NCBI GenBank assembly: GCA_000165345.1
Contig: CM000430.1
Coordinates: forward strand, 64,001 to 128,000
Direction of reading: 5' to 3'
Length of the DNA: 64,000 bases
The notes beneath the pieces were generated by a model. The model saw only the letters and a program-made list of their open reading frames with translations, did not search any database and had not been told where the DNA came from. Position 1 is the first letter of the stretch. Every line of letters begins with the position of its first letter. Below, piece by piece: positions 21,397-46,100 of the stretch. The position numbers and the translations under genes are program-made.

Positions 21397-21432
21397 GCGT
21401 CACGTCTACTGCCCGTGCATGCAGGTAAAATA
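21397..21432. promoter_or_regulatory. Composite ACGT box (GCGTCACGTC) plus TGCATGCAGGTAAAAT (AP2-type TGCATGCA box), ~360-395 bp upstream of ARO.
   Basis: The 16-mer TGCATGCAGGTAAAAT recurs exactly at 46085..46100, upstream of Hop2. Confidence 0.5.
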
Positions 21433-21561
21433 TTCTTGTGAAGATGGAAAAATGAAATGAAAAAGTAAATAAATAATTAATAAAAAATAAAAATGGAGGG
21501 TCAATAAATATTGTAATTGCATCTATTTGTTTCTAGCATTGTAATATGTATAATTATTGAA

Positions 21562-22632
21562 TTATAAAATAGAAAATTCTTTCTTTATTTGAATCTTCAG
21601 ATCATGTATACTGTCATTATTCCATAAAACTTTATCTGCCAGTTCACACTTTGTTTTCAGGCTCATTTGTGAATCAATCATATTTTCTGCTAAAGTTTGA
21701 GTACAAGAATCTCTATCCATTAAATATTTGATCTGCTGTTCTCTATTTGCCGATACTACATATATTGGTGAGCAAATCCATGTGAAAACTTTGCTTTCAA
21801 AAAGTAGAGGAGATACAAGGATAGTTTTAACATTTTGAAATCTTGTTAGCAAAACAAAAACCCTGAAATAAAAAATCTCATATAAAGTTGCAGCAAAAAT
21901 TCTGGGATGTGTAATCATGTTCAATTTCTTTCTTTTAAGTGGATCTTCAAAAATTATTGATCTTAGAAGTTTCCTATTCAAACTACCATCTTGGTTTACT
22001 AAATTATCTCCAAATTCTCTCAAAATTTCACTATTTTATTATTAATCAATTATGGATTTAATGAAATATTAATCTAGTTACAAAATTCAAACAAATCTTT
22101 ATTAACTTGGTTTCATATGAACTAAATATTCAAATACATAACCAAGTTAAAGTAAAGTATGAAACTTACAAGTATGCAGGTTTTCCAATATCAACAATTT
22201 GTCTTGAAATTATATCCATGTCAATTATCACAAAACCATTTTCTTTTAAAAAGTTTGAAACTTGAGTCTTTCCACATGCAATTCCTCCAGTAATTGAAGG
22301 AATTATTATACGATGTAAAAGTAAACAAATTAATACGTTAAGAGAGCACTTGAATACATTTTCTATAAATAAGTAGGACTAGACAATAATATTGCAATTA
22401 TTTGTATTAATTATTCATTATTTTGTTAAACTATCTTTACAATAAAGTCTAGATAGTTTTTTTTAAAAAATTTGTAACATAACAAACTTACCAATAAATT
22501 TATTGGAATTCCCAGCAATAGTAATATAAATTCAGAATTAGTTACTTTCTTCTTGCATCTTAATAATAGAAAATAATATAGTATATTTGTAAATAACACA
22601 TCTAGAAACAAAAATAATATATTCAAGTACAT
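21562..22632 (-). CDS. DPCK: Dephospho-CoA kinase (CoaE), three exons: join(21562..~22030, ~22170..~22348, ~22492..~22632). Intron 2 is ~139 nt. The putative intron 1 is ~143 nt, and exon 1 adds a hydrophobic N-terminal extension.
   Basis: The track ORF 21562..22023 holds LNMITHPRI and ADKVLWNNDSIHDL, as in CoaE (LNALLHPLI, ADDVIDNNG). Upstream exon 2 encodes ..IIIPSITGGIACGKTQVSNFLKENGFVIIDMDIISRQIVDIGKPAY, the P-loop and the VIDADIIARQVV motif. It ends in a GTAAGT donor in phase 2 that joins as TT|T to ...FEILREFGDNL (compare E. coli ...HAIADHFGANM). Exon 2 has no in-frame ATG. The only frame-preserving upstream join is from an ATG exon (MYLNILFLFLDVLFTNILYYFLLLRCKKKVTNSEFILLLLGIPINLL|GTAAGT) to the acceptor ..ttcaAG|TGCTCT. 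Exons 2-3 are high confidence; exon 1 is moderate. Confidence 0.6.
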
Positions 22633-24204
22633 ATATTCCTTTTTTTTCAAATATTGACTTTTAAATCAAGGAGTTTGATGTTAAATAAAAATTGATTTAA
22701 TGGAATATTTAAGTTTTTCAAAATTTCAATTTTTTTTTTTTTATAAATATATATATATTTATTTTTTATATACACAAAAATGAGAAAGCCAAAACATGTC
22801 AATTTGAATTTTAATGATTATAATGAGACACAACCACATAATTGTATTAATTCCGGTAACACAAAAATAATAAAATATTAGGAAACTAAAAAAAAAAAAA
22901 AGAATTATACTTTAGTAGCCAAATGTTCATGTAATTAAATAAATGGAATAACAAATACTTGATTGATTATTTTTTTTAAAAAATATAAATCATTAAAATT
23001 AATGAGAACTTCCAGAAGTTACGAAATAAATGTATAAAATACAAAGATTACAATTTTTTTCGTAATATTTCATTAGAATATTCAGAATTACCTTAATAAC
23101 CTTACACCATTTCTAGCAGTTGTTAATGAGAGCTTTCTACGAAAACTTTATTTAGATAATTTTAAAAAAAAAAAAAAAAAAAAATGATAATGCTTTTAGT
23201 ATTCAAAAGTCAAACATTTTTATTAGTAAGCATATTTTTCTCAACAAAAATTTTCTATTAAATTTATTTATTTAAATGGTAAAACTACCCGATTTAAAAA
23301 GTTTGATTTAATCTTTAGATAATTATAGCATAAATTATAACAAAATTTTTGAGTATTCCAAAGTTATTTAAATCAAGAAAATATTGCAAGAAAACTTATT
23401 TTCTTAAAATTTTCTTTTAAAAAGAGATGTAAAGATATTAAACTTTTTAAATAATTAAGTCAAGTCTTTTAAATATATTAAATATCTATTAATTCATTTA
23501 AGTCATGAGCCTGAAAAGTAAATATTTTCTTGATACAAAGTATTCCCCCTATTTTCAAAAAATAAAAAGAAAATACTAACTAGTTCTTATATATATATAA
23601 ATATTCATATCTTCATTATATTGATGAAGTTCAAAAATTAATTATTAATTTTTGAATGCCAATGATTTTAGAATAAATAGATTCAAAAATATTAAGATCA
23701 ATTTATATATTTAACAATAATTACTATCATAGATATATGAATTTAACATGAAAATGATTATGTAAGAAAAATTCTAACTCTTTTACAATGTTAATATTTT
23801 AAATGTAAAAAAAAAAAAAAAAAATCAAAATTTATTAATGTTTTATTTTGCTTGCTTATAAGAATTTGAACATTTTCACTAAGAAATTATGGTTTGGTTT
23901 GGTAAACAATTTTACATAGGATTTAAATGAAACGTTTACTTCGATAAATTAAAAATAAATAGAAAGTTAATTCTAATAATTTAATCACGTGGATTAATTT
24001 CCATCTAAATATAAGACTCCTTTCATTACTCATTCAAGACATTAACAGGAAATACGTATGAAAGCCGCATATACGCCCACAAACTTCTATTTACTCGGTG
24101 ATCATTTAAAGAAAAGTAAAACAATATTGGCAAAAACAATATAGAATTCATGATTATAATTATTTTAAGAAAGTACTGCAATTTCTCCGCAATATAGTGA
24201 AAAC

Positions 24205-24672
24205 ATGTCAATAAAAAAGTTCAGGTCACTCCTAACAACATTAGTTCTAATACTCTTCTTGTTCAATTACGAGCATAATGAGCAAGAAACAACCAATCGA
24301 GTAGTTCTTGACCACTCCTTTCTGAATTTAAGAAGACCCTCCATCCGAAAATTGATGAGATGTTTTGGATGTTGCAGGGGGAAGTGCAAAAAGAAACCAT
24401 CTAAAAAAAAAGGTTTTACCCTACCACCCCCGCCAGCTCGTTCATGCCTTAAGAAAACCGGACAAAATTCACAGTCTCAAGAAGGTAATCAGGGCGTCAG
24501 TCCAAAAAGAGTGACATTTGATTTAGGAAATAAGCCGCGTTCTGGAATTAAATCCACCGTAGGAGGACTTCCTTCTTCAAGCTCTCCACCATTAAGAGTA
24601 ATGTTAGGATTGGAAAGACCTGATACTACGAAAAATGAAGATAATAGTGAAGAAATTGAAACTAAATTTTAA
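24205..24672 (+). CDS. Small secreted protein, member 1 of the tandem SP-S[FLI][LI][KQN][LIM] family (155 aa).
   Basis: ATG at 24205. Signal peptide MSIKKFRSLLTTLVLILFLF. Motif LDHSFLNL at aa 36-43, then RPSIRKLMRCFGCCRGKCKKK. Ser/Pro/Gly-rich tail. Confidence 0.6.
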   Translation: MSIKKFRSLLTTLVLILFLFNYEHNEQETTNRVVLDHSFLNLRRPSIRKLMRCFGCCRGKCKKKPSKKKGFTLPPPPARSCLKKTGQNSQSQEGNQGVSPKRVTFDLGNKPRSGIKSTVGGLPSSSSPPLRVMLGLERPDTTKNEDNSEEIETKF

Positions 24673-44463: not shown

Positions 44464-44515
44464 GATTTGTGTGTGTGGGGCGAGTTATTATTAATAATGG
44501 TTATATAATGATTAC

Positions 44516-45879
44516 TTAAACCATCTCAATTCCTATTTCTTCCATCAAATCTGAAGCCTAAAAATTAATTACATATTTATAATGATTTTATTCAAGTAAA
44601 ATTATTGATCATAATCCACTTGAATTAAAAACAACTTACCTTCCTTTCCATAGATTCTGAAAAAGTGTCCACTGCAGATTTACATGCAGATTTGAGCTTC
44701 TTTAACTTTGCCTGAAATTCAATAAATGATAAATTTTAAAATTAATATTAAAAAAATAACTTACCTGCTTTTTTAACAAGCTATTCTTTAACTCTTTTAA
44801 TTCATTAACTGGAATAATCTCACAATCGTCATCTAACATTTTTTCCTTTCTTGAAATCTCCTCTTTAAGTGATTTATTCTTTAAAATGCAAATAAAAATA
44901 ATTAAAGATAACATTTTAGAAAAGAATTAATGCGTTATAATATTTTATATATCAAATTTTTAAATTTATATTATAAACTTACCTTAAGATTTTCTTGCAT
45001 TATTTTCTCTTCTAATTCGTCAATAGTTAATGGAACACTTATATTTCTTGTTTCTTGTTTAAGTTGTTTAAGCCTCACTTCCAAATCATTCAATTCTGAC
45101 TCGCAAACAGAAATACTTTTATCCAAAGCTTCCATTTCATCCTTGTTTAATTCTTTACAGTCACTTTGGTCTACTAAATATACTTTTTGTTTTCCATACT
45201 CCTTGCATATAAACTTCCCCTCGACAGCAAGACGTTCCATTTCATCAGTTACTTGCTTCTTTGAGTATACATTATGCAAATTATCAACCACATTTTGTAC
45301 TGAATATGGACGATTCTGCTCTTTCATATAGTTAAATATTGCCTCTCCTGCATCTCCTGCTGCTGATCCTCCCCCTGAATTTGCAACATTCCTCTTTGTC
45401 AAATTCTTTGGAGCAGACAGTTTCTTTTTCTTTGCCGGCTTTGTACTTTTATCTTCATCATCAGATTCTAATTCATCTTCCACTGAACTTTCTTTAGATG
45501 ATTGTTTTTTTGGTTTTGCAGGTTTTGAGTTAATAGACTCCCCCCCTTTTTTCTTTGTTGTACTTTTTTTGCCTTTTTTACCCTTTTCAAATTCTTCTTC
45601 TTCTAAATCCAAGTCATTTTCATCATCTTCATCATCACTATCTTCGTCTCCTTCATCTATAAAATCCATTTCCTCATCAAAATCACTCTCAAAATCATCC
45701 AATTCATCATCTTCATCATCAAAATCTGTGTATTTTACAACTTTTCTAGAATTTCTTGATGGTCTAACTTGAGATTTACTTTCCATATTATCATCTTCCA
45801 TTTTACTCTGTTGTGTTTCATCCAATCCTGTTCCTTCTTCTTCCATATTATTACCTTCTTCTTTGCTTCTTTTTACCAT
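44516..45879 (-). CDS. HOP2: Hop2/TBPIP meiotic homologous-pairing protein with a long acidic/lysine-rich N-terminal extension. Four exons: join(~44516..44557, ~44641..44710, ~44764..44877, ~44983..45879).
   Basis: ATG at 45879. Winged helix ..EAIFNYMKEQNRPYSVQNVVDNLHNVYSKKQVTDEMERLAVEGKFICKEYGKQKVYLVDQSD aligns with human HOP2 (YLQEQNRPYSAQDV...EGKIKEKTYGKQKIYFADQ). The track ORF reads through a GTAAGT donor after ..QENLK. Downstream exons NKSLKEEISRKEKMLDDDCEIIPVNELKELKNSLLKKQ | AKLKKLKSACKSAVDTFSESMERK | ASDLMEEIGIEMV* are each flanked by GTAAGT...(T)nAG introns of ~55-95 nt. The C-terminal EEIGIE matches the HOP2 tail FFEEVGIETDED. Confidence 0.65.
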
Positions 45880-46039
45880 TTTTTCTTGAATTTTTTTATT
45901 TTAATAAACAACTTATTATCTTAATTTAAATTTACTTTTAAATTTATAAATTCATTCATTCACCCTCATTTTAAATTTTTTTTATAATTTATTCCAACTT
46001 TATTTCATATTATTTATTAACTAATCTGCACTGATGCCT

Positions 46040-46100
46040 CTTACGTGTTAATTTTTGCCCCTCTTGCAATTCCACATGCAAATTTGCATGCAGGTAAAAT
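46040..46100. promoter_or_regulatory. TTACGTGTTAATTTTTG plus CATGCAAATTTGCATGCAGGTAAAAT module ~160-220 bp upstream of Hop2.
   Basis: The same 16-mer TGCATGCAGGTAAAAT occurs at 21417..21432. The ACGTGT half matches the 38622 palindrome arm. Confidence 0.5.

What the first reader, a model, noticed from the sequence alone, without database searches (positions are those of the whole stretch)
21397..46100. Recurring bipartite cis-module: ACGTGT/ACGTC box adjacent to an AP2-type TGCATGCA box, with an exact shared 16-mer
Four sites pair an ACGT-core box with TGCATGCA within 10-40 bp. They are 21397..21432 (GCGTCACGTC...TGCATGCAGGTAAAAT), 38601..38643 (TGCATGCATG-GATTTTACAACTTACGTGTC, which extends into a perfect 22-bp palindrome), 42490..42518 (TGCATGCATGCAATTTTACACGTGTTG) and 46040..46100 (TTACGTGTTAATTTTTG...TGCATGCAGGTAAAAT). 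The 16-mer TGCATGCAGGTAAAAT is identical upstream of ARO and Hop2. The 38601 and 42491 versions share TGCATGCATG-[GC]AATTTTACA-ACGTGT. TGCATGCA is the best-known ApiAP2 site, and the attached ACGT box suggests a composite element.
Basis: seen in the sequence. Interest (0 to 1): 0.55.

Follow-up and report, generated by a model that had tools for sequence, protein, structure and literature searches.

The report
Conserved Cryptosporidium promoter modules: TGCATGCA plus ACGT box
In this stretch of Cryptosporidium parvum chromosome 2, the well-known AP2 transcription-factor site TGCATGCA is accompanied far more often than chance allows by a previously unlisted ACGT-core box. It sits inside short multi-motif promoter modules that are conserved across Cryptosporidium species and lie upstream of two strongly female-stage genes, but it is not a rigid two-part element.

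Summary
The window is C. parvum Iowa II chromosome 2 (cgd2_370 to about cgd2_580).

**Enrichment**
- TGCATGCA occurs 10 times against 0.53 expected.
- In an unbiased k-mer scan, ACGTG/ACACGT is the most enriched word within 50 bp of TGCATGCA.
- ACGTG lies near 4 of 5 intergenic TGCATGCA loci (permutation p = 2e-5), against 1 of 18 E2F loci and 0 of 8 G-box loci.

**Conservation in orthologous loci from nine species**
- Site 3 is conserved as far as C. felis and C. ryanae.
- Sites 2 and 4 are conserved only in close relatives.
- At site 1 (ARO) the second box is conserved as GACnnGACG, not as an ACGT core.
- The 16-mer is not conserved at Hop2.
- Box-to-box spacing drifts between 2 and 22 nt.

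**Composition and context**
- The modules also hold ACCGGTAT (6 copies against 0.24 expected), ATGTGGA and sometimes E2F sites.
- Sites 3 and 4 lie upstream of cgd2_490 and Hop2, both strongly female-specific in published RNA-seq.
- Site 2 lies between convergent 3' ends, so it may drive an antisense RNA.

**Verdict:** a real co-occurring motif set in flexible promoter modules. The ACGT box and ACCGGTAT were not found in the published motif lists I checked. A genome-wide test is still needed.

The parts
21398..21406 (-). Site 1, second box. It reads GACGTGACG in the ARO direction.
   Evidence: Conserved as AGAC(A/G)(A/T)GACG in C. meleagridis, C. ubiquitum, C. felis and C. xiaoi, and as CGACAGGA in C. 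muris. It lies 9-10 nt from TGCATGCA. The ACGT core itself is not conserved.
21416..21431 (.). Site 1: TGCATGCA (21416-21423) plus the GGTAAAAT flank. This is copy 1 of the 16-mer, 379 bp upstream of the ARO (cgd2_370) ATG at 21037.
   Evidence: TGCATGCA is present in the ARO upstream region of all seven aligned sequences (six species), including C. muris. The flank is conserved only in C. meleagridis (8/8) and C. ubiquitum (7/8).
38585..38595 (-). Site 2: E2F site. It reads ATGGGCGGGAA on the minus strand.
   Evidence: Conserved in C. meleagridis (GGGCGGGAA) and C. ubiquitum (TGGCGGGAA).
38601..38653 (.). Site 2 core: TGCATGCA (38601-38608), the 22-bp palindrome made of two inverted TTACGTGT boxes (38622-38643), and a second TGCATGCA (38646-38653). 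It lies between the convergent 3' ends of ORF 33965..38350(+) and ORF 39000..40415(-).
   Evidence: C. ubiquitum keeps both 8-mers with a longer spacer. C. meleagridis keeps only ACACGTAA, and its other arm is CCACATGT.
42453..42461 (-). Site 3: TTCGTGTAA. This is a second CGTGTAA copy.
   Evidence: 7-9 of 9 positions identical in C. meleagridis, C. ubiquitum, C. canis and C. felis. C. ryanae has TTCGTGTTT.
42468..42475 (-). Site 3: ATGTGGAC (G-box-like), 15 nt from TGCATGCATGCA.
   Evidence: ATGTGGA is invariant in five species, and TGTGGAC is present in C. ryanae.
42491..42502 (.). Site 3: TGCATGCATGCA (two overlapping AP2_1 sites).
   Evidence: 12/12 identical in C. meleagridis, C. canis and C. 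felis, and 11/12 in C. ubiquitum. C. ryanae has two TGCATGCA copies.
42508..42515 (.). Site 3: ACACGTGT, a palindromic ACGT-core box.
   Evidence: 8/8 identical in C. meleagridis and C. canis. C. ubiquitum has GCACGTAT, C. felis has CACGTGT plus ACGTGT, and C. ryanae has ACACGTGT 22 nt from TGCATGCA.
42529..42538 (.). Site 3: ATACCGGTAT palindrome. The whole site 3 module lies about 450-535 bp upstream of the ATG (42003) of the Tyr-rich secreted protein gene 40867..42003(-). That gene is inferred to be cgd2_490.
   Evidence: ACCGGTAT occurs 6 times in the window against 0.24 expected. It is conserved in C. meleagridis and C. ubiquitum, and as ACCGGT in C. canis.
46041..46048 (+). Site 4: TTACGTGT (ACACGTAA in the Hop2 direction), 162 bp upstream of the Hop2 ATG at 45879.
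   Evidence: 8/8 identical in C. meleagridis and C. ubiquitum, within the conserved block TTAACACGTAAGAGGCATCA. Absent in C. canis, C. felis and C. ryanae.
46056..46081 (-). Site 4: G-rich AGAGGGGCA and TTGCATGTGGA (a TGCAT half-site fused to ATGTGGA).
   Evidence: TTGCATGTGGA is 11/11 identical in C. meleagridis and C. ubiquitum. C. canis has TTGCATGCGGG.
46085..46100 (.). Site 4: copy 2 of the 16-mer TGCATGCAGGTAAAAT.
   Evidence: Not conserved as a unit. C. meleagridis reads ATTTTACTTGCATGTA and C. ubiquitum reads AATTTTTGTTCATGCA.
46109..46118 (.). Site 4: ATACCGGTAA.
   Evidence: ACCGGTAT in C. meleagridis, GCCGGTAT in C. ubiquitum and GCCGGTAC in C. canis.
49486..49533 (.). Additional module: TGCATGCA (49486-49493), TGACGTAA (49514-49521) and the E2F site GGGCGCCAAAA (49523-49533). 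It lies between convergent 3' ends (proteasome subunit cgd2_530 and Ost-alpha cgd2_540).
   Evidence: The trio of E2F, xxACGTCA and TGCATGCA is kept in C. ubiquitum (CCACGTCA) and C. canis (ACACGTCA).
51908..51922 (+). ACACGTAATGCAAAC: the fourth copy of the 8-mer TTACGTGT/ACACGTAA, abutting a degenerate TGCA site. It lies 208 bp upstream of the cgd2_540 ATG.
56823..56919 (.). Module of the same composition inside the long ORF 54075..61094(+): ACCGGTAT, TGCATGCGCGCA, TGCATGCA, TCCACAT and TGACGTGG.
   Evidence: Between C. parvum, C. meleagridis, C. ubiquitum and C. canis, the longest invariant blocks coincide with these motifs and the spacers between them vary.

Best explanation
These are short (about 60-100 bp), evolutionarily constrained cis-regulatory modules of Cryptosporidium promoters.

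**Composition.** Each module is built around the palindromic ApiAP2 site TGCATGCA. It also holds an ACGT-core 8-mer and, at several sites, ACCGGTAT, ATGTGGA (G-box-like) and/or an E2F site. The ACGT-core 8-mer is mostly TTACGTGT or ACACGTGT, with variants TGACGTAA and TGACGTGG.

**Likely mechanism (inferred).** Stage-specific AP2 proteins occupy TGCATGCA. A second, still unidentified sequence-specific factor occupies the ACGT box. The mix of boxes, rather than a fixed spacing, sets the expression programme, so this is a flexible 'billboard' arrangement. For sites 3 and 4 that programme is female gamete/zygote expression. The two modules that lie between convergent 3' ends (site 2 and 49486) most plausibly act as promoters of unannotated antisense or intergenic RNAs.

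**Shown here:** presence, statistical association, specificity and cross-species constraint.

**Taken from the literature:** AP2 binding to TGCATGCA, and the female-specific expression of the downstream genes.

**Inferred only:** binding at the ACGT box, cooperation between the boxes, and the antisense promoters.
For: **Association and specificity**
- TGCATGCA: 10 copies against 0.53 expected.
- ACGTG/ACACGT is the most enriched k-mer near TGCATGCA in C. parvum. The same is true when the scan is repeated in C. meleagridis and C. ubiquitum. In the pooled distant species it is the top word apart from GCATG-type words.
- Locus-level permutation p = 2e-5 for the intergenic set.
- Only 1 of 18 E2F loci and 0 of 8 G-box loci have ACGTG nearby.

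**Constraint**
- Site 3 motif columns are 0.91 identical in C. canis against 0.45 for the background, and 0.80 against 0.39 in C. felis.
- The site 3 module is recognisable in C. ryanae.
- At site 1, TGCATGCA and GACnnGACG are kept as far as C. xiaoi and partly in C. muris.

**Shared vocabulary**
- ACCGGTAT occurs 6 times against 0.24 expected, and 3 of its 4 loci are in these modules.
- ATGTGGA occurs in three modules.

**Expression (Tandel 2019, PMC6877471, supplementary file 4). Values are log2 means for asexual / female in vitro / female in vivo.**
- cgd2_490: 1.37 / 8.56 / 10.70.
- Hop2 (cgd2_510): 0.96 / 6.20 / 8.07.
- The proteasome gene cgd2_530, one gene beyond cgd2_520, is flat.
- The interleaved neighbours cgd2_500 and cgd2_520 do not appear in the held part of that differential-expression file. 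The file was truncated when stored.

**Known binders**
- The TGCATGCA binders cgd2_3490 and AP2-F (cgd4_1110), and the G-box binder cgd8_810, are female-specific (PMC12246861, Table 4).

**Antisense RNA precedent**
- C. parvum lncRNAs mostly start at the 3' ends of genes and carry E2F and AP2_1 motifs upstream (PMC7840661).
Against: - The evidence base is small: one 64-kb window plus its orthologues. That gives 5-8 TGCATGCA loci, and the cross-species support comes from the same orthologous sites, so it is not independent.
- No genome-wide test was possible.
- No binding or transcription-start data were available for any site.
- Sites 2 and 4 are conserved only among close relatives, where the background identity is already 65-90%.
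- The ACGT boxes are heterogeneous (TTACGTGT, ACACGTGT, TGACGTAA, TGACGTGG, GACGTGAC) and may not be one motif.
- ARO (cgd2_370) has a different expression profile (6.87 / 2.79 / 8.10) and a different second box.
- The ORF starting near 62862, probably the female-upregulated cgd2_580, has no TGCATGCA or ACGT box upstream.
- No lncRNA matching my probes was found in the truncated lncRNA FASTA of PMC7840661.
Confidence: 0.6

Rival explanations
1. The ACGT box is not a separate class of site. It is a variant of the known ACAC/GTGT-type ApiAP2 motifs: AP2_2 (GCACAC), the GTGTGT bound by cgd5_2570 and cgd6_2600, or the GCGTGCA bound by cgd4_2950. On this reading the modules are AP2-only.
For: - ACACGTGT, TTACGTGT and TTCGTGTAA all contain CGTGT/ACACG, which is itself strongly enriched near TGCATGCA.
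- AP2 domains with GTGTGT-type specificity exist, and some are expressed in in-vivo females (PMC12246861, Table 4).
Against: - The CG dinucleotide is the best-kept part of the box across species. C. ubiquitum has GCACGTAT and C. felis has CACGTGT and ACGTGT.
- The variants TGACGTAA and TGACGTGG lack the ACAC/GTGT half.
- No published C. parvum protein-binding-microarray motif with an ACGT core was found.
Confidence: 0.22
2. The co-occurrence is a by-product of promoter islands. In AT-rich intergenic DNA, all G/C-containing words cluster in the same short regulatory stretch. The pairing would then have no specific meaning.
For: - Other G/C-containing words (GGGCA, CGCA, GCGC, CCGG) are also enriched near TGCATGCA.
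- The sample is small.
Against: - ACGTG ranks first of about 500 5-mers, with Bonferroni p = 1.6e-5.
- E2F and G-box loci, which are also promoter islands, almost never have ACGTG nearby: 1 of 18 and 0 of 8.
- The boxes themselves, not the spacers, are the conserved columns.
Confidence: 0.12
3. Site 2 is a structural element. The 22-bp palindrome would form a hairpin or cruciform that serves as a bidirectional 3'-end or termination signal for the two convergent genes.
For: - It is a perfect 22-bp palindrome (38622-38643), placed between two convergent 3' ends.
Against: - Hairpin potential is not conserved. In C. meleagridis one arm is CCACATGT.
- In C. ubiquitum only the two 8-mers are complementary, with a 13-nt spacer.
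- The same 8-mer occurs singly at sites 4 and 51908.
- The site is flanked by an E2F site and two TGCATGCA sites, which are promoter-type motifs.
Confidence: 0.06
4. The 16-mer TGCATGCAGGTAAAAT is an extended functional unit. It could be a longer protein-binding site, a remnant of a duplicated element, or a mini-exon plus splice donor (CAG|GTAAAAT).
For: - There are two exact copies in the same orientation relative to two minus-strand genes.
- About 0.015 such flank matches are expected by chance (my estimate).
Against: - It is not conserved at Hop2 even in C. meleagridis or C. ubiquitum.
- Similarity between the two copies does not extend beyond 17 nt.
- There is no plus-strand gene at either place for a splice donor to serve.
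- ATTTTAC is only modestly enriched near TGCATGCA: 4 of 17 copies, p of about 1e-3 by my calculation, and below the top k-mers listed.
Confidence: 0.04

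Closest known systems
AP2_1 motif (BGCATGCAH / TGCATGCA) of Cryptosporidium parvum upstream regions. It is bound in vitro by the AP2 domains of cgd2_3490, cgd1_3520, cgd4_1110 and others (Oberstaller 2013, PMC3734150; Oberstaller 2014, PMC4117751; review PMC12246861).
   Same: - Exact consensus matches.
- Strong over-representation, mostly outside coding sequence.
- Located upstream of genes.
- Co-occurs with G-box-like and E2F motifs, as reported for many gene clusters.
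   Different: - The published lists of 25 motifs and 6 motif families contain no ACGT-core box and no ACCGGTAT.
- Here those two are the most specific companions of TGCATGCA.
E2F plus AP2_1 motifs upstream of C. parvum antisense lncRNAs that start at the 3' ends of genes (Li et al. 2021, PMC7840661).
   Same: - Site 2 and the 49486 module lie in gaps between convergent 3' ends.
- Both combine an E2F site with TGCATGCA.
   Different: - No transcript was shown here for either site.
- The ACGT box is not among the motifs named in the text I read of that study. Only the top two of its five significant motifs are named there.
ACGT-containing elements of plant promoters (G-box CACGTG, A-box, C-box and their hybrids). 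These are bound by bZIP dimers and act together with nearby coupling elements. This comparison rests on my own knowledge.
   Same: - An 8-mer with an invariant ACGT core and variable half-sites (TTAC, ACAC, TGAC, CCAC).
- Palindromic or hybrid forms.
- Works next to a second, different box.
   Different: - No evidence that a bZIP binds here. C. parvum is listed with only one non-CCAAT bZIP (PMC3734150, Table 2).
- No homology of the system is implied.
'Unknown set 1' motifs of Oberstaller 2013: motif 18 WTAGACR and motif 10 RMGACG.
   Same: The conserved second box of site 1 (TAGAC(A/G)(A/T)GACG) matches WTAGACR in C. meleagridis (ATAGACA). It matches RMGACG in C. felis and C. xiaoi (AAGACG).
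   Different: - Those motifs were each found in a single expression cluster by one algorithm.
- No link to TGCATGCA was reported.

Membership tests
AP2_1 (TGCATGCA) ApiAP2 cis-element | Sequence matches the consensus BGCATGCAH / TGCATGCA. | tested here: met
AP2_1 (TGCATGCA) ApiAP2 cis-element | Over-represented and concentrated in non-coding or upstream DNA. | tested here: met
   10 copies against 0.53 expected. Seven of the 10 are intergenic. One lies in ORF 3766..7536 and two lie inside the long ORF 54075..61094.
AP2_1 (TGCATGCA) ApiAP2 cis-element | Constrained at orthologous positions. | tested here: met
   - Present in the ARO upstream region of all seven aligned sequences (six species).
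- 11-12 of 12 positions kept at site 3 in four species.
- Not kept at the 16-mer copy of Hop2 in C. meleagridis or C. ubiquitum, where the neighbouring TTGCATGTGG is kept instead.
AP2_1 (TGCATGCA) ApiAP2 cis-element | Bound by an AP2 domain at these loci. | not testable with these tools
   Only in-vitro microarray data for the motif in general are available (PMC4117751, PMC3734150).
Fixed-geometry bipartite (composite) element | Constant spacing, order and orientation of the two boxes between sites and between species. | tested here: not met
   - The gap at site 3 is 5, 6, 5, 5, 2 and 22 nt in C. parvum, C. meleagridis, C. ubiquitum, C. canis, C. felis and C. ryanae.
- Within C. parvum, the gap from TGCATGCA to the nearest edge of the ACGT-containing box is 9, 13 and 2, 5, and 36 nt at sites 1, 2, 3 and 4, with the order differing relative to the gene.
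bZIP-type ACGT-core element | Invariant ACGT core with palindromic or hybrid half-sites. | tested here: met
   - TTACGTGT (three copies plus 51908), ACACGTGT, TGACGTAA and TGACGTGG.
- The core CACGT/ACGT is the best-conserved part at site 3.
bZIP-type ACGT-core element | A bZIP (or bHLH) protein of the organism binds it. | not testable with these tools
   The literature lists one non-CCAAT bZIP in C. parvum. No binding data exist. bHLH is not in that table.
Promoter of an antisense or intergenic lncRNA (site 2 and 49486) | A transcript starts next to the module. | tested here: inconclusive
   - Six 22-24-nt probes flanking the two modules were absent from the lncRNA FASTA of PMC7840661. That file was truncated (about 324 header matches, against 396 lncRNAs reported).
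- No Rfam family or tRNA was found in the window.

The most novel reading that the evidence does not exclude
TTACGTGT/ACACGTGT, together with ACCGGTAT, TGCATGCA and ATGTGGA, forms a genus-wide 'female/zygote promoter code' in Cryptosporidium. It would be read in part by an uncharacterised factor, for example the single non-CCAAT bZIP. This code would control the large class of female genes that was unchanged when AP2-F was depleted, such as the oocyst-wall proteome genes (PMC10233709). It would also drive stage-specific antisense RNAs from 3' gaps and from inside genes.
Probability: 0.25. Interest if true: 0.65.

Novelty: new variant of a known kind. Interest (0 to 1): 0.45.

Why it matters
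- **Open question.** Regulation of the Cryptosporidium life cycle, especially female development and oocyst formation (the transmission step), is poorly understood. AP2-F explains only a subset of female genes.
- **What this adds.** A conserved companion box of TGCATGCA, upstream of two of the most female-specific genes in this region, gives a concrete sequence to test. It can be mutated in reporter parasites or used as bait to find the missing factor.
- **Annotation.** The modules also flag likely unannotated transcription units: two gaps between convergent genes and one place inside a long ORF.

Tried and rejected
1. **Known RNA genes in the two convergent gaps.** Rfam (gathering threshold) and ARAGORN on the whole window found nothing.
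2. **The 16-mer as mini-exon plus splice donor (CAG|GTAAAAT).** Rejected, because there is no plus-strand gene or ORF at either place.
3. **The 16-mer as a trace of duplication.** Rejected, because identity stops after 17 nt.
4. **The palindrome as a conserved hairpin.** Rejected by the C. meleagridis and C. ubiquitum orthologues.
5. **ATTTTAC/GTAAAAT as a third obligatory box.** It is only modestly enriched and poorly conserved at sites 2 and 4.
6. **Published lncRNAs at site 2 and 49486.** Probes were not found, but the stored file is truncated.
7. **Literature on an ACGT-core motif in Cryptosporidium or for ApiAP2 proteins.** Searches returned only PCR primers and adapters.
8. **An error in my first noncoding mask.** It wrongly treated 54075-56999 as noncoding, although the ORF there is real. 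I repeated the statistics with a strict intergenic mask and on the whole window, and the conclusion was the same.
9. **A genome-wide test.** Not possible.

Full report
**What the window is**

The ARO-like protein encoded at 20216..21037(-) is identical to C. parvum Iowa II EAK87368.1, which is cgd2_370. Its contigs are about 0.99-Mb C. parvum chromosomes.

Gene order and Pfam hits in orthologous contigs identify the neighbouring genes:
- CoaE
- ARO
- a run of small secreted proteins
- a very large low-complexity gene
- a 471-aa gene
- a tyrosine-rich secreted protein (40867..42003, minus strand)
- a BRCT-like gene
- Hop2/TBPIP (44971..45879, minus strand)
- a mitochondrial phosphate carrier
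- a proteasome subunit
- Ost-alpha
- a PQ-loop protein
- a roughly 2300-aa protein

The names in Tandel 2019's tables fix cgd2_510 as Hop2, cgd2_520 as the carrier, cgd2_530 as the proteasome subunit, cgd2_540 as Ost-alpha and cgd2_550 as the PQ-loop protein. By gene order, the Tyr-rich gene is cgd2_490. That assignment is an inference.

**The observation**

This includes the two copies of TGCATGCAGGTAAAAT and the perfect 22-bp palindrome at 38622-38643.

TGCATGCA occurs 10 times against 0.53 expected. An unbiased scan of all k-mers within 50 bp of TGCATGCA puts ACGTG/CACGT first among 5-mers and ACACGT/ACGTGT first among 6-mers. This holds with a strict intergenic mask and on the whole window (first version).

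At the level of loci, 4 of 5 intergenic TGCATGCA loci have ACGTG within 50 bp (permutation p = 2e-5). On the whole window it is 5 of 8, with 0 of 100,000 permutations reaching that. The association is specific: 1 of 18 E2F loci and 0 of 8 G-box loci have ACGTG nearby. The exact 8-mer TTACGTGT occurs four times against 0.41 expected, always outside ORFs.

**Orthologues**

I fetched the ARO region from C. meleagridis, C. ubiquitum, C. felis, C. xiaoi and C. muris. I fetched the Hop2 region from C. meleagridis, C. ubiquitum, C. canis, C. felis, C. ryanae and C. andersoni.

- **Site 1.** TGCATGCA is present upstream of ARO in every species. It is followed after 9-10 nt by AGAC(A/G)(A/T)GACG. The ACGT of C. 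parvum is therefore incidental: C. meleagridis has AGACATGACGTG and C. felis and C. xiaoi have AGACAAGACGCG.
- **Site 3.** The whole series ATACCGGTAT, ACACGTGT, TGCATGCATGCA, ATGTGGAC and TTCGTGTAA is kept in C. meleagridis and C. ubiquitum. C. canis and C. felis keep it except for ACCGGTAT, which is truncated to ACCGGT in C. canis and absent in C. felis. Motif columns are 0.80-0.91 identical where the background is 0.39-0.45. ACACGTGT, two TGCATGCA copies, TGTGGAC and TTCGTGT are also found in C. ryanae with different spacing.
- **Site 4.** CCGGTAT, TTGCATGTGG, a G-run and TTAACACGTAAGAGGCATCA are kept in C. meleagridis and C. ubiquitum only. The TGCATGCA of the 16-mer is mutated in both.
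- **Site 2.** The E2F site and one TGCATGCA are kept in both C. meleagridis and C. ubiquitum. Both TTACGTGT arms are kept only in C. ubiquitum, and C. meleagridis keeps one. So the palindrome as a structure is not conserved.

Repeating the k-mer scan in the other species again puts ACGTG/ACACGT at or near the top. This mostly reflects the same orthologous sites, so it is evidence of constraint rather than independent replication.

**More than two boxes, and more than four sites**

ACCGGTAT occurs 6 times against 0.24 expected. Three of its four loci are in these modules. ATGTGGA occurs in three modules.

Further modules:
- 49486-49533 holds TGCATGCA, TGACGTAA and an E2F site. The trio is conserved in C. 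ubiquitum and C. canis.
- 51908 holds ACACGTAA abutting TGCAAAC, 208 bp upstream of cgd2_540.
- 56823-56919 lies inside a long ORF that looks genuinely coding. Its longest invariant blocks in four species coincide with the motifs.

Order, orientation and spacing differ among modules and drift between species. This argues for a flexible module rather than a composite site.

**What the modules control**

The evidence here comes from the literature plus inference.

In Tandel 2019's sorted-stage RNA-seq, cgd2_490 and Hop2 are among the most female-specific genes. Log2 values for asexual, female in vitro and female in vivo are 1.37 / 8.56 / 10.70 for cgd2_490 and 0.96 / 6.20 / 8.07 for Hop2. The authors place cgd2_490 in their oocyst-wall heat map and Hop2 among meiotic genes. 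The interleaved genes without a module, cgd2_500 and cgd2_520, do not appear in the held part of that differential-expression file. That file was truncated when stored, so their absence is weak evidence.

ARO, which has a different second box, is expressed in asexual stages and in in-vivo females. The TGCATGCA-binding AP2s cgd2_3490 and AP2-F, and the G-box-binding cgd8_810, are female-specific.

Site 2 and the 49486 module lie between convergent 3' ends. C. parvum antisense lncRNAs typically start at the 3' ends of genes and carry E2F and AP2_1 motifs upstream, so that is the most economical reading. I could not show a transcript at either site. cgd2_470, which I infer to be the large gene ending next to site 2, is female-enriched. 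An antisense transcript could contribute to that signal if the libraries were unstranded. This is speculation.

**Comparison with what is known**

TGCATGCA is the established AP2_1 motif. Neither an ACGT-core box nor ACCGGTAT appears among the 25 motifs of Oberstaller 2013 or the six motif families of the 2025 review. Full-text searches found no report of such a motif.

The box resembles bZIP-type ACGT elements in form, and C. parvum is listed with one non-CCAAT bZIP. A GTGTGT/GCACAC-type AP2 domain is an equally open candidate. The site 1 box resembles motifs 18 and 10 of Oberstaller's 'Unknown set 1'.

**Verdict**

It overreaches on three points:
- There is no rigid bipartite element.
- Site 1 is a different box.
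- The 16-mer is not a conserved unit.

The finding is a new variant of a known kind of element. It rests on few loci and needs a genome-wide test.

Noticed in passing
window 27028-27037, 42529-42538, 46109-46116, 56823-56830: ACCGGTAT, often as the palindrome ATACCGGTAT, occurs 6 times against 0.24 expected. It is not in the published C. parvum motif lists I read. The copy at 27028 lies about 190 bp upstream of the secreted-protein gene 27221..28006 and has no TGCATGCA nearby.
   Followed up: partly
window 56823-56919 (also 55749-55796): Promoter-like motif clusters lie inside the long ORF 54075..61094. One holds ACCGGTAT, GCATGC, TGCATGCA, TCCACAT and TGACGTGG. Another holds the E2F site TTTGGCGGGAA, a G-run and TGCATGCA. 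In the first, the longest invariant blocks between four species coincide with the motifs and the spacers vary. This suggests an internal or antisense promoter within coding sequence.
   Followed up: partly
window 42104-42205 (minus strand): A block upstream of the Tyr-rich gene is conserved in all six aligned species. It reads as an ATG-less open frame for a hydrophobic peptide (..ILLILFIIVIIFIVSILTEE) that ends at a GT. It could be an unannotated small exon or gene, or a constrained 5' UTR element.
   Followed up: no
window about 42385-42400 (minus strand): The motif (A/C)(G/C)TTTT(T/C)T(C/T/A)ATTTT (AGTTTTTTCATTTT in C. ubiquitum and C. canis; ACTTTTTTTATTTT in C. parvum) lies about 90-100 bp downstream of the site 3 module. 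It is recognisable in all six species (shifted in the alignment in C. ryanae) and may be an initiator or transcription start region.
   Followed up: no
window 21360-21396 (minus strand): Just downstream of the site 1 boxes, the block GGCAAAGTTACCATGTAAAAG is conserved in C. parvum, C. meleagridis and C. ubiquitum.
   Followed up: no
window 38660-38830: Next to site 2 there is a purine-rich GAGA-like run on the plus strand, followed by imperfect AAAGCAAGAC-type repeats. It is much shorter or absent in C. meleagridis and C. ubiquitum.
   Followed up: no
window 24205-33167: Seven tandem plus-strand genes encode small secreted proteins (134-261 aa). They share an N-terminal signal peptide, an LLKL-type motif, a Cys cluster and Ser/Gly/Pro-rich tails. 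This is a species-variable paralogue cluster, and gene number and sizes differ in C. felis, C. xiaoi and C. muris.
   Followed up: no
window 33997-34096 and scattered single N: A 100-N assembly gap and several single Ns interrupt the 5' part of the large low-complexity gene. ORF 33965..38350 is therefore truncated in this assembly. Orthologues are about 2100-2300 aa.
   Followed up: no
whole window: The tetramer ACGT is rare: 54 copies in 64 kb, against roughly 165 expected from base composition by my estimate. This rarity makes its clustering near TGCATGCA easier to detect.
   Followed up: partly
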